Below, piece after piece: positions 12,147 to 35,843 of a DNA stretch of 64,000 bases; positions within the stretch are counted from its first letter, which is position 1, and each line of letters starts with the position of its first letter. A program made the translations under genes and the position numbers. The notes under the pieces are model-generated. The model ran no database searches and was not told the DNA's origin. It saw nothing but the letters and a program-made list of their open reading frames with translations. This stretch comes from a virus. Lineage: Duplodnaviria > Caudoviricetes. Location: positions 186,396 through 250,395 of the IMG/VR virus record IMGVR_UViG_3300032038_000001; one strand, given 5' to 3'.

Positions 12147-12263
12147 TTTTATTCACAACCTTTCATCTTAACTATCTTTTTATTGGCATTACATACTTAT
12201 TTTTTTGTTTATTATTTAATTATATTTTATCCGTAGAGGTATACGAATAATAAACAAAAAATT

Positions 12264-12299
12264 AAGATGACGTTAGGAATTTCTTCCTAACGTCATCTT
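12264..12299 (-). terminator. Intrinsic terminator/hairpin
   Basis: AAGATGACGTTAGGAA/TTCCTAACGTCATCTT inverted repeat, with a U run on the minus strand. Confidence 0.65.
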
Positions 12300-29935: not shown

Positions 29936-30080
29936 TCCTTTCTATGGTAATATTTTCTTACTATGAAATAATATATAAACTAATAGAAAATATTAAATGA
30001 GAGTTTGATTCAAGTTTATTTTTAATTTTTATAACATAGAAATAAAACTGAAAGAAATTTATTATTCGTCGGATTCCTTA

Positions 30081-33485: not shown

Positions 33486-33644
33486 ATGAATAATGATTGT
33501 CTCAATAACTATGATGATTCAGAAATTGAATCATATTTCGGAGAATCAGATGATTCTATTAAAAAATGTAATAAATGTCCTCATCTTATATATGAAAATG
33601 GAACAATAACATGCGACAAAATTATAGAAAAGGAAGATCAATAA
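33486..33644 (+). CDS. Small Cys-containing protein
   Basis: ATG 33486 after RBS AAGGGGG; CNKC...TCD; TAATG coupling to the next gene. Confidence 0.5.
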   Translation: MNNDCLNNYDDSEIESYFGESDDSIKKCNKCPHLIYENGTITCDKIIEKEDQ

Positions 33645-34900
33645 TGATTGTACAGAATGTAGAAATGTCAAATATTGACAAATTGTATGAAGCTATTGCA
33701 ATAGGTAAGCATAATCCAGATTATGATAAAAAAATATATGATAATATTAATAAATTACTATCTCATACCACTATAACTTTTTTCATTGATGACTTGACTT
33801 TATTTGAAGAGTTTATCATGAAAGTCTTTACAAACTCGGAAATTATTCCAGTAGCGACATTTTATGACAATGAAGCATTAGGTGATAAATATAAACAAGT
33901 TATAGATAACATTTTAACGTTATCTGACAGTATTAATCGTGATGCCGATATAAAATATTCAATTGGTCAATACTTCCTAACGGCTGGCTGTATAACTAAG
34001 AGAATTATTTTGTCGTTATCTGGTCCACAGTTATTCTCTATTTTTGGTATGATGCCTGATGTATTTTTTATGAAAACATTTGGATATCAATCAAACAGTG
34101 ATTTTTCTCATGAAATTCTCGATTATAAAGTTCTCGAGGATTCATTAATTACAAACTTTGTTAATAATTTTTATAGTTATTATCAGTCATATGTAAATAA
34201 AATTGATGCTGTTATTGATTCATACATTCATAGTAATTTCTATAGTTTTATCGATGATAAAAAAACTTCTGTAGCATTATCAGATGTTGTATCTCCTACG
34301 GGTTCAATATCGTTTTTTGGTGATAAAACCGATAATATACAGACAGATATGATGCACACATCTAGTGTATTTTTAGATGTAATAGATGATGTACGTGGTT
34401 TAATGTACAAATCAATAAATCTATATTTTGTTATAAATTGCAGTTTTTATGCGTTCCTAGAGATGTCTATAGCTCTTCCTAATGTATTTTTCATAGACCA
34501 TCAGGATATGAAACTTTTATTTAGAGAAGATGCTAAAATGATAATACCAGAAGGATTAGATAAATATAGTATGAGATTATCATCTAAACTTGGAGATATA
34601 AAAAAGATGAAAGATGAAGTATCTTCTAAACATGAAGCTAATCTCACAAGATATAAATTTATTCCATTAAATACATCAATTAAATTTAGTATGAAGATTT
34701 CTCTGAATGACATTTCTTCAACTTTATTGAAGTATGAAACAGCGATTAGAGATAATCATATTTATAATATGAATTCGGCTTTAAGTAACGAGATACTCTA
34801 TATAATTAATTCAATTAAATCAACATCAAAAAGTATTTATGATATATTATTATCATCATCGAAAGAACTTGAACGACGTGTATTTGATGATAATAACTAA
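33644..34900 (+). CDS. Hypothetical protein, possibly a tandem degenerate ThyX-like fold
   Basis: Start probably ATG 33644 (RBS AAGGA). HTTITFFI, QYFLTAGCIT, INLYFVINCS and RYKFIPLNTSIKFSM echo ThyX structural motifs; no RHR catalytic motif. Confidence 0.45.
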   Translation: MIVQNVEMSNIDKLYEAIAIGKHNPDYDKKIYDNINKLLSHTTITFFIDDLTLFEEFIMKVFTNSEIIPVATFYDNEALGDKYKQVIDNILTLSDSINRDADIKYSIGQYFLTAGCITKRIILSLSGPQLFSIFGMMPDVFFMKTFGYQSNSDFSHEILDYKVLEDSLITNFVNNFYSYYQSYVNKIDAVIDSYIHSNFYSFIDDKKTSVALSDVVSPTGSISFFGDKTDNIQTDMMHTSSVFLDVIDDVRGLMYKSINLYFVINCSFYAFLEMSIALPNVFFIDHQDMKLLFREDAKMIIPEGLDKYSMRLSSKLGDIKKMKDEVSSKHEANLTRYKFIPLNTSIKFSMKISLNDISSTLLKYETAIRDNHIYNMNSALSNEILYIINSIKSTSKSIYDILLSSSKELERRVFDDNN

Positions 34901-34901
34901 G

Positions 34902-34941
34902 AAATGGGTCTATAGAATTAAAAATCTATAGACCCATTTTT
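34902..34941 (+). terminator. Intrinsic terminator
   Basis: AAATGGGTCTATAGA/TCTATAGACCCATTT followed by T residues. Confidence 0.75.
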
Positions 34942-34969
34942 AATATATTTTTTATACTAATATACGTAG

Positions 34970-35010
34970 AAAAAATTGACTATTACGTATTTTATACGTA
35001 ATAGTCAATT
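34970..35010 (-). terminator. Minus-strand intrinsic terminator with no upstream ORF
   Basis: 17-bp stem AATTGACTATTACGTAT/ATACGTAATAGTCAATT; the U run exists only on the minus strand. Confidence 0.65.
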
Positions 35011-35063
35011 GATTTGGATAATATTCTGAAAGGAGACTAGAACTAGAATGTGAATTCATCTTT
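34970..35063 (-). ncRNA. Putative ~90-nt late sRNA with anti-Shine-Dalgarno segment (CUCCUUUCAGAAUAU)
   Basis: Late promoter motif at 35063-35074, terminator at 34970-35010 and no ORF in between. Confidence 0.4.
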
Positions 35064-35074
35064 ATTTAAATGTT
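35063..35074 (-). promoter_or_regulatory. Late promoter motif (AACATTTAAATA), orphan
   Basis: Exact AACA-N6-TA; no protein gene downstream. Confidence 0.45.
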
Positions 35075-35139
35075 ATGAAAGATAACTAATAAATTAAGTC
35101 ATCATTTATATATGAATTATCATTTTTAAGTTATTCAAG

Positions 35140-35295
35140 GTTTTCCTTTTTTCTCTTTCTTATCCTATTTATTTTTTTATCTTTCTCTTTTTTTTATTTT
35201 TCTCTTTCTTCCTTTTTCTTCTCTTTTTTTTTATTTTTTTATCCCCCATTTGTGGGCTCGCTTTTCGCTCCCCCAGCCGGTAGGGGTTCCCCCTT
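35140..35295 (-). other. G-cluster hairpins plus ~105-nt polypurine tract; candidate R-loop origin or structured RNA
   Basis: Plus strand 35141-35246 has no G and is almost all T/C. 35243-35293 is a conspicuous GC-rich island (GGGGG, GGGGG, GGGG on the minus strand). Confidence 0.4.
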
Positions 35296-35306
35296 AATAG
35301 AATGTT
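35295..35306 (-). promoter_or_regulatory. Late promoter motif (AACATTCTATTA) abutting the GC-rich element
   Basis: Exact AACA-N6-TA; predicted +1 falls at the first base of AAGGGGGAACCCCU. Confidence 0.55.
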
Positions 35307-35339
35307 ATAGAAAAATAAAATTTAATTTTTAACTTCAAT

Positions 35340-35408: not shown

Positions 35409-35843
35409 ATGTCAAAAGCTAAGAAAAAGAAGGAAAGTAAGAAGCCGATATCAATTATAAATGAGGTTGATAAGACTTTGAATATGACATACGATGCCAT
35501 TATGTCAGAAATTGAAGAGCTTCAGTTGGAACTTTATCTTGCTGAAGAGAAAGCTCGAAAGAAGGCAAGAAAGAAGATAAAGAAAGATCCTTATTATTTT
35601 GATAACTCTCTTGAACGAATAGAAGCTCGAAAGGAAGTGATTCAGAGAATAGAAGGAACTAATCTTCTTGATAGGATAGAAAATATTTTCAAGGACATAT
35701 GTCCTATTGTAATTATCATAGCAAGATTAATTGCTTCGTTAATTCTTGCTATTTTATCATTTGAACCAGTTAAGGTTCATATTAAACCTGAGACACTTCT
35801 AAAGTTACAGAATGTTTATCAGAGCTCGTTAAGTATAAAATAA
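35409..35843 (+). CDS. Hypothetical protein with C-terminal hydrophobic helix
   Basis: Start MSKAK after RBS GGAGG; IVIIIARLIASLILAILSF. Confidence 0.6.
   Translation: MSKAKKKKESKKPISIINEVDKTLNMTYDAIMSEIEELQLELYLAEEKARKKARKKIKKDPYYFDNSLERIEARKEVIQRIEGTNLLDRIENIFKDICPIVIIIARLIASLILAILSFEPVKVHIKPETLLKLQNVYQSSLSIK

What the first reader, a model, noticed from the sequence alone, without database searches (positions are those of the whole stretch)
35140..35306. Late promoter firing into a G-cluster and polypurine tract: candidate R-loop replication origin or structured ncRNA
Seen: in the window's largest ORF-free gap, a perfect minus-strand late promoter (35295-35306) places +1 exactly at the edge of a conspicuous GC-rich island. 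The RNA would begin AAGGGGGAACCCCUACCGGCUGGGGGAGCGAAAAGCGAGCCCACAAAUGGGG, with small hairpins and G5/G5/G4 runs. About 105 nt of nearly pure A/G follow, and the RNA can run to a minus-strand terminator at 34970-35010. Known: G-clustered purine-rich transcripts form persistent R-loops that prime replication (T4 origins, ColE1 RNA II, mitochondrial CSB II). Inference: this is a transcription-primed origin, or a packaging or structural RNA. I am not aware of such an element being described in AR9-like jumbo phages.
Basis: partly seen in the sequence, partly recalled or inferred. Interest (0 to 1): 0.85.

Follow-up and report, generated by a model that had tools for sequence, protein, structure and literature searches.

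The report
Duplicated purine-tailed late RNA unit
An uncultured rumen jumbo phage carries two inverted copies of a small gene-free unit (late promoter, G-run head, about 100 bases of pure A/G, terminator) that its relatives keep at the same genome junction; it is most likely a new non-coding RNA, and less likely a transcription-primed replication origin.

Summary
What is new is that the element is not unique. It is a roughly 200-bp unit present twice in the 250-kb genome, in opposite orientation: copy A at window 35122-35327 (minus strand) and copy B at genome 63352-63548 (plus strand). Promoter and GC head are identical between copies; the purine tail differs by indels.

Both loci are kept in a sister phage and in more distant lineages. 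Relatives whose flanking proteins are only 21-29% identical (G005, G002) still carry a G-run plus polypurine unit beside the same 429-aa gene, on the same strand. In G002 it also has the same late promoter and T-rich upstream block.

The AACA-N6-TAA motif is depleted in the window and mostly sits before genes. Terminators follow the unit in every lineage. I therefore read it as an autonomous late non-coding transcription unit.

The head shows no fold better than shuffled sequence. The tail keeps composition, not sequence, and nothing matches Rfam.

- Free RNA with an obligately single-stranded purine platform: about 0.45.
- R-loop origin: about 0.28. It remains open because both copies sit at the two deepest GC-skew minima. 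It is weakened by the terminators, a phage primase, and patchy distribution.

No RNA data could be obtained. First readers flagged copy B separately, but nobody had linked the two copies.

The parts
35307..35328 (-). T-rich upstream block (AAATTA..TTTTATTTT..) just 5' of the promoter; part of the repeat
   Evidence: Identical in copies A and B. Kept in the sister phage, L009, L021 and L015, in G005 and in G002. The generic late-promoter profile carries little information at these positions.
35295..35306 (-). AR9-type late promoter AACA-N6-TA; predicted +1 = 35295
   Evidence: Consensus and start-site rule come from PMC5312081. The genome's own profile is AAAACA-N6-TAA, built from 43 sites lying 12-60 nt before start codons. 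The motif is kept at the same spacing in L009, L021, L015/16 and G002.
35243..35294 (-). GC-rich head. Three G5 runs (35289-93, 35270-74, 35243-47) and a C4 run (35283-86) that can pair with either neighbouring G run.
   Evidence: It is 100% identical in copy B, with 1 substitution in the sister phage. The sequence diverges in L009, L021 and L015, but the 5' G-run/C-run hairpin is kept.
35141..35242 (-). Polypurine tail: 102 nt, no C, 7 T, about 70% A
   Evidence: It differs from copy B by indels of 15, 4 and 1 nt. It cannot be aligned with L009, L015, G005 or G002, yet is purine-only in all of them.
35122..35140 (-). Conserved 3' block of the repeat (CCYUGAAUAACUUAAAAA); the first pyrimidine patch after the tail
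   Evidence: CCUU/CCCU is complementary to the 5' AAGG/AGGG. This is analogous to the G-run:CU-patch closing helix predicted in G009/G012.
35062..35074 (-). Second AACA-N6-TAA promoter, inside the read-through path of copy A (a separate small unit)
   Evidence: Its downstream CU-rich motif is conserved in L021, L020 and the sister phage.
34968..35010 (-). Minus-strand intrinsic terminator that ends copy A's transcript (about 325 nt if unit 1 reads through)
   Evidence: 17-bp stem plus T run on the minus strand only.
34900..34941 (.). Bidirectional terminator hairpin behind the 429-aa gene
33611..34900 (+). 429-aa gene of unknown function; a constant neighbour of copy A across relatives
   Evidence: Homologues flank the element in L002, L021 and L020, in G005 (E 4e-6) and in G002 (E 2e-17).
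35409..35843 (+). 144-aa gene on the other side of copy A
   Evidence: Its homologue lies next to the G005 copy (E 2e-12).

Best explanation
The unit is a gene for a late non-coding RNA, kept in two copies.

**Proposed mechanism**
1. The phage's non-virion RNA polymerase starts at A 35295 (inferred from the motif).
2. The first 13 nt form a small G4/C4 hairpin inside a G-rich head. This probably protects the 5' end.
3. Then come about 100 nt of A/G with no C and almost no U. Such a stretch cannot pair with itself or with the head, so it stays single-stranded.
4. A terminator hairpin caps the 3' end.

I propose that the free RNA works through this exposed purine platform. It would act as a decoy or landing pad for a factor that binds single-stranded purine-rich RNA (for example an Hfq-like protein, S1, or decay enzymes), or for pyrimidine-rich RNA stretches.

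**What is shown:** the anatomy, the duplication, and the conservation of promoter, composition and terminator.
**What is inferred:** transcription, RNA stability, and the partner.
For: - **Two copies.** Promoter and head are identical; the tail varies by indels.
- **Both loci are conserved.** The sister phage has both. The L009/L015 lineages have copy B. L021 and L020 have copy A.
- **Deep conservation.** G005 and G002 keep a G-run/polypurine unit beside the 429-aa gene on the same strand. In G002 it has the same AACA-N6-TAA promoter and T-rich block.
- **The promoter motif looks functional.** It is depleted overall and sits before genes.
- **A terminator follows in every lineage**. The one after copy A works only on the element's strand.
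- **The 5' hairpin is a portable RNA module.** The same promoter plus 5' hairpin fronts an ordinary mRNA leader in another phage contig, L012.
- **The tail keeps composition, not sequence**.
- **RNA structure in distant relatives.** In G009/G012 the purine tract follows a 5' domain with 10 compensatory pairs and is closed by a G-run:CU-patch helix.
- **No conserved ORF.** The small open frame is 26, 12 and 6 codons long in three copies.
Against:
- The head folds no better than shuffles, and there is no covariation within the close clade.
- No partner has been identified, and the phage has no Hfq gene.
- GGA motifs are not conserved between copies.
- Whether the G009/G012 element is homologous to this one is inferred only through G005.
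- A G-cluster directly after the start site followed by a GAA-like tract is also what an R-loop former looks like.
Confidence: 0.45

Rival explanations
1. Transcription-primed (R-loop) replication origin, present twice in inverted orientation. Late-polymerase transcripts would re-anneal through the G clusters and the GAA-like purine tract. The hybrid would be trimmed by the phage RNase HI and extended by the DNA polymerase. Each copy's promoter template strand lies on the strand displaced by a fork coming from the other copy.
For: - Both copies lie 1-2 kb to the right of the two deepest cumulative GC-skew minima, which are also divergence junctions: about 62.5 kb, and about 220 kb (the global minimum).
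- The position beside the 429-aa gene at that junction is conserved out to G002 and G005.
- Copy B sits inside the replication module: SF1 helicase, a RecA/DnaB-like ATPase, and a primase at 54.7 kb.
- G5 runs start at +3, and purine (GAA)n tracts are known R-loop formers (PMC4176329 abstract).
- The phage has an RNase HI gene.
- AR9 nvRNAP initiates on single-stranded template DNA (PMC5449584).
- T4, ColE1 and mitochondrial precedents exist (my own knowledge).
Against: - A terminator directly follows the tail in all lineages.
- C runs fold the G runs into hairpins, and the same 5' module fronts an mRNA.
- The phage has its own primase, so transcript priming is not required.
- The tail is about 70% A and only about 22% G.
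- GC skew here tracks gene orientation, so the minima are not independent evidence.
- No such unit was found in AR9 (strict purine-tract scan only) or in 9 of 14 near-complete relatives (promoter-plus-G4 scan and strict purine-tract scan). These criteria are narrow: own copy B itself fails the purine-tract one.
Confidence: 0.28
2. A selfish or neutral dispersed cassette (strong promoter, spacer, terminator), or a cis-acting DNA element of another kind. Examples would be a recombination hotspot, H-DNA, or a transcription insulator at block boundaries. The RNA product itself would have no function.
For: - This genome is rich in dispersed promoter-leader cassettes (earlier notes e1-5642555 and e1-5642566).
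- The 5' part of the tail shares species-specific indels between the two copies of each genome. That is evidence of gene conversion.
- Homopurine mirror-like tracts can form triplexes (my own knowledge).
Against: - The purine-only composition is kept over 100-250 nt in lineages whose tails can no longer be aligned. In an AT-rich genome that argues for selection on one strand.
- Both loci have been retained across flanking-protein divergence down to 21-29% identity.
Confidence: 0.15
3. It encodes a short, highly basic peptide. In copy A an AUG in the head opens a 26-codon Lys/Arg-rich frame.
For: The frame is visible.
Against: - There is no Shine-Dalgarno sequence.
- The frame is 26 codons in copy A, 12 in copy B and 6 in the sister phage, because of 1-nt run-length changes.
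- The AUG is absent at that place in L009 and L015.
Confidence: 0.02

Closest known systems
T4 ori(uvsY)/ori(34), ColE1 RNA II and the mitochondrial LSP-CSBII primer (R-loop origins; my own knowledge)
   Same: A dedicated promoter fires into a G-clustered, purine-rich, non-coding stretch. There is more than one copy per genome, as in T4. An RNase H gene is available.
   Different: Here an intrinsic terminator follows immediately. C runs can sequester the G runs. The tract is A-rich rather than G-rich or a plain AT-rich unwinding element. No hybrid or origin activity has been shown.
Sponge/decoy small RNAs with repeated single-stranded protein-binding motifs (CsrB/RsmZ type; A-rich Hfq distal-face binders; my own knowledge)
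   Same: A small, terminator-ended, non-coding RNA in more than one copy. Its body is a low-complexity single-stranded platform flanked by protective hairpins.
   Different: There is no repeated defined motif. GGA sites are not conserved between copies. No partner is known, and the promoter is a phage late promoter.
Phage morons and PeSL-type promoter-terminator cassettes (named in earlier notes e1-5642555 and e1-5642578)
   Same: An autonomous promoter-to-terminator unit inserted between genes, repeated within the genome and homogenised by recombination.
   Different: It carries no gene and no leader fused to a start codon. Its position beside the 429-aa gene is stable over long divergence.
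Friedreich-ataxia type (GAA)n tracts (PMC4176329)
   Same: A long GAA-like homopurine tract transcribed with the purine strand as RNA.
   Different: It is not a strict triplet repeat, and it is a conserved feature rather than an unstable expansion.

Membership tests
AR9-type non-virion RNAP late promoter | AACA-N6-T(A/G) with the last base as the start site | tested here: met
   rule from PMC5312081
AR9-type non-virion RNAP late promoter | The motif is used genome-wide before genes | tested here: met
   In upstream regions there are 61 sense against 31 antisense matches. 43 sites give AAAACA-N6-TAA. In the window the motif is depleted, and 9 of 15 matches are gene-proximal.
AR9-type non-virion RNAP late promoter | A mapped 5' end, and dependence on template-strand uracil | not testable with these tools
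   No RNA data. The base composition of the virion DNA is unknown.
R-loop-primed replication origin | A persistent RNA-DNA hybrid and a DNA start at the RNA's 3' end | not testable with these tools
   Needs DRIP or 5'-end mapping of nascent DNA.
R-loop-primed replication origin | Sits at a replication-driven strand-asymmetry switch | tested here: inconclusive
   Both copies lie near GC-skew minima, but skew follows gene orientation.
R-loop-primed replication origin | Conserved across related genomes | tested here: inconclusive
   Present in the own clade and in G002, G005, G009 and G012 (a single purine-tract hit in G003 was not inspected). Not detected in 9 of 14 relatives by the promoter-plus-G4 and strict purine-tract scans, nor in AR9 by the purine-tract scan.
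Known RNA family (Rfam 15) | A covariance-model match | tested here: not met
   Nothing below E = 0.06 at the locus, and nothing at all on the element. No match at E of 0.01 or less in seven related loci.
Conserved structured RNA | A fold better than shuffles, and covarying pairs | tested here: not met
   Head z-scores range from -0.86 to +1.2. The consensus has 7 pairs, of which 1 is compensatory. Only the distant G009/G012 5' domain shows compensatory pairs.
Canonical intramolecular G-quadruplex | Four G tracts of at least 3 with short loops | tested here: not met
   The own head has three G5 runs plus one GG, with loops of 10-22 nt. L015 and G002 do have four tracts.
CsrA-type sponge RNA | Multiple conserved GGA motifs | tested here: not met
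   Two tail GGA sites of copy A are lost in copy B.
Diversity-generating retroelement TR/VR pair | A reverse transcriptase gene and adenine-specific differences between repeats | tested here: not met
   No RVT_1 match. The differences between copies are indels.

The most novel reading that the evidence does not exclude
The two inverted units are a reciprocal pair of strand-displacement origins.

1. The late polymerase fires at one copy on duplex DNA and leaves a purine RNA hybrid that primes leading-strand synthesis.
2. The strand displaced by that fork carries the template strand of the other copy's promoter.
3. An AR9-type polymerase can use such a promoter in single-stranded form (PMC5449584). 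It would make the primer for the complementary strand there.

This parallels the mitochondrial OH/OL scheme. It would be the first origin described for this jumbo-phage group.
Probability: 0.2. Interest if true: 0.85.

Novelty: new variant of a known kind. Interest (0 to 1): 0.62.

Why it matters
No replication origin and almost no non-coding RNAs are known for AR9-like jumbo phages. This element is a sharply defined, conserved, duplicated, promoter-to-terminator unit with an extreme strand composition. That makes two questions directly testable.

- Do these phages make abundant purine-only RNAs, and what do those RNAs bind?
- Does their unusual polymerase, which reads template strands and can use single-stranded DNA, also prime DNA replication?

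Either answer would be new for this phage group. The unit is also a compact natural example of an RNA that is forced to stay single-stranded.

Tried and rejected
- **Python box.** It was lost. Genome-wide counts of divergence points and lenient purine-tract scans could not be scripted. I used pattern searches instead.
- **'Primase-less phage' premise: rejected.** Seven Pfam primase-related models gave nothing above cut-off. A weak zinc-ribbon hint then led to a 349-aa ORF at genome 54714-55763. It matches PHROG DNA primase at E 7e-38.
- **Coding peptide: rejected.** The frame is not conserved.
- **CsrA sponge, DGR/retroelement and canonical G4: rejected.** See the membership tests.
- **Structured head: not supported**.
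- **DNA searches.** Searching the phage collection with the locus found nothing. IMG/VR and metagenome exact-pattern scans found only the sister phage plus chance hits in GC-rich bacteria.
- **G004 promoter-plus-G4 hits.** These belong to a different repeated structured RNA.
- **429-aa neighbour protein.** The fold model is poor (pLDDT 58), and the only matches are weak ThyX-like ones. This was not used as evidence.
- **Hfq.** No Hfq gene in the phage.

Full report
**Setting.** The window is the last 64 kb of a single 250,395-bp virus record with 30.9% GC. Its topoisomerase II subunits are about 25% identical to those of AR9, PBS1 and phiR1-37. No phage record matches at the DNA level. Earlier notes of this scan place it among uncultured rumen jumbo phages.

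**Observation.**
- The minus strand at 35306-35295 reads AACA, six bases, TA. In AR9 this is the late-promoter consensus of the non-virion RNA polymerase, and the last base is the start site (PMC5312081).
- The predicted RNA starts at 35295 with two A's and a G5 run. A 52-nt GC-rich head follows, holding three of the window's eight G5 runs.
- Next come 102 nt with no C and seven T, then a short conserved block.
- After about 110 further bases there is a terminator that works only on the minus strand.
- The gap is the window's largest ORF-free stretch.

**Is the promoter more than chance?**
- In this genome the motif extends to AAAACA-N6-TAA. 43 sites lie 12-60 nt before start codons.
- In upstream regions, sense matches outnumber antisense matches 61 to 31.
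- In the window the 13-mer pattern is depleted: 15 matches against 27.6 +/- 5.3 in shuffles. Nine of the 15 are gene-proximal. A match is therefore likely to be a working promoter.
- Promoter followed by G4 occurs in the genome only at this element and its twin.

**The element is a repeat.**
- Self-comparison found a second copy at genome 63352-63548 on the plus strand.
- From 21 nt upstream of AACA through the head, the two copies are identical. The tail differs by indels of 15, 4 and 1 nt, and the last 19 nt are conserved.
- Copy B lies between a 131-aa gene and an SF1 (Dda/RecD-like) helicase gene. It points the same way as its neighbours and is followed at once by a strong hairpin terminator.
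- Copy A points against its neighbours. The unit therefore behaves as autonomous.

**Conservation.**
- A sister phage (94% protein identity) has both copies. There is one substitution in the head.
- In the first half of the tail, run lengths and small indels are shared by the two copies of each genome but differ between genomes. Locus-specific differences survive in the second half. This is the signature of gene conversion between the copies.
- More distant lineages keep copy B in synteny (helicase 72% identical): L009 and L015/L016.
- They also keep copy A in synteny (429-aa protein 58-59% identical): L021 and L020.
- In each, the late promoter stands at the same spacing and the 5' G-run/C-run hairpin is kept. 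The head is GC-rich but differs in sequence, the purine tail is 75-110 nt and cannot be aligned, and a terminator follows.
- Relatives with 64-69% helicase identity lack the unit at the helicase junction.
- A scan for long purine tracts in 14 near-complete IMG/VR relatives found hits in five; four were inspected and carry related units (G003's single hit was not examined).
  - G005 has one between the homologues of the 429-aa and 144-aa genes, on the same antisense strand as copy A. It has further copies 3.4 kb away in inverted orientation.
  - G002 has a 480-nt version directly upstream of the 429-aa homologue at the divergence junction. It is driven by AAACA-N6-TAA behind the same T-rich block.
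  - G009 and G012 have a roughly 390-nt element. Its purine tract follows a 5' domain with ten compensatory pairs and is closed by a helix between the G run and a CU patch.
- AR9 itself has no such tract.
- Nothing matches Rfam.

**What the RNA would look like.**
- The head alone folds no better than shuffled sequence in any lineage. The consensus retains only the C-run/G-run pairing.
- The same promoter plus 5' hairpin module fronts an ordinary mRNA leader in another phage contig. This points to a role in initiation or 5'-end protection.
- A tail made only of A and G cannot pair with itself or with the G-rich head. Folding leaves it open.
- The small ORF opened by an AUG in the head is 26, 12 and 6 codons long in three copies. 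It is not coding.

**Weighing the mechanisms.**

For a free RNA:
- Promoter and terminator are conserved in all lineages.
- The 5' module is portable.
- The tail keeps composition rather than sequence.
- The distant relatives show RNA-level pairing.

For an R-loop origin:
- G clusters start at +3 and are followed by a GAA-like tract, a known R-loop former (PMC4176329).
- Both copies sit just right of the two deepest cumulative GC-skew minima, including the global minimum.
- The position at that junction is stable across relatives.
- Copy B lies within the replication genes.
- The phage encodes RNase HI.
- The AR9 enzyme can start on single-stranded template DNA (PMC5449584). This would let each copy be activated on the strand displaced from the other.

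Against the origin:
- The terminators.
- The C runs.
- The A-rich rather than G-rich tail.
- GC skew that simply follows gene direction.
- Patchy distribution among relatives.
- A bona fide primase gene. I found it only after Pfam models had missed it.

I put the free-RNA reading at 0.45, the origin at 0.28, a cassette or cis-DNA element without RNA function at 0.15, and a peptide at 0.02.

**Limits.**
- No expression data could be obtained.
- The scripting machine was lost.
- Homology between the own-clade unit and the G009/G012 element rests on a chain through G005.
- The co-location with divergence junctions was judged from a 5-kb skew table, not from a full gene map.

Noticed in passing
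window 34968-35074 (-): A second small unit lies behind copy A: an AACA-N6-TAA promoter, a CU-rich motif (GUCUCCUUUCAGAAUA) resembling a 16S 3' end, then the terminator. The motif is conserved in the sister phage, L021 and L020. In L021 and L020 a perfect hairpin overlaps this promoter.
   Followed up: partly
window 33611-34900 (+): The 429-aa neighbour has no Pfam or PHROG match. A low-confidence model (pLDDT 58) gives only weak matches, but all of the top 50 belong to the flavin-dependent thymidylate synthase fold: 49 ThyX chains plus the related dUMP methylase PolB (E about 0.02, TM 0.14-0.37).
   Followed up: partly
genome 54714-55763 (+) = L115 415-1464: This is a DNA primase that seven Pfam primase-related models miss. 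PHROG 19847 matches it over its full length at E 7e-38.
   Followed up: yes
genome 95024-95455 (+): A stand-alone RNase HI gene (PF00075, E 3e-41) in a 166-aa frame.
   Followed up: no
window 12253-12265 (+) and 30033-30045 (+): Two further intergenic AACA-N6-TAA matches point away from the neighbouring genes. They are possible orphan or antisense late promoters.
   Followed up: no
L101 1490-1600, L102 1490-1600, L104 1545-1430 (G004): A different repeated element occurs three times in a 282-kb relative. It is structured and GC-rich, and its late-promoter spacer (ACCCCG) pairs with the first transcribed bases.
   Followed up: no
L109 2050-2240 and L110 2150-2330: The 5' domain of the G012/G009 element has several hairpins with compensatory changes and no Rfam match. 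It is a candidate new structured RNA fused to a purine tract.
   Followed up: partly
P0003, P0026 and related helicase homologues (540-693 aa): Some orthologues of the SF1 helicase next to copy B are 150-300 aa longer. Several of them carry PF14528 (a LAGLIDADG-type domain), which suggests an intein or endonuclease insertion.
   Followed up: no
L007 and L020 contig ends: Two independent metagenome contigs break inside the head of the element. This is what a two-copy repeat is expected to do to an assembly.
   Followed up: no
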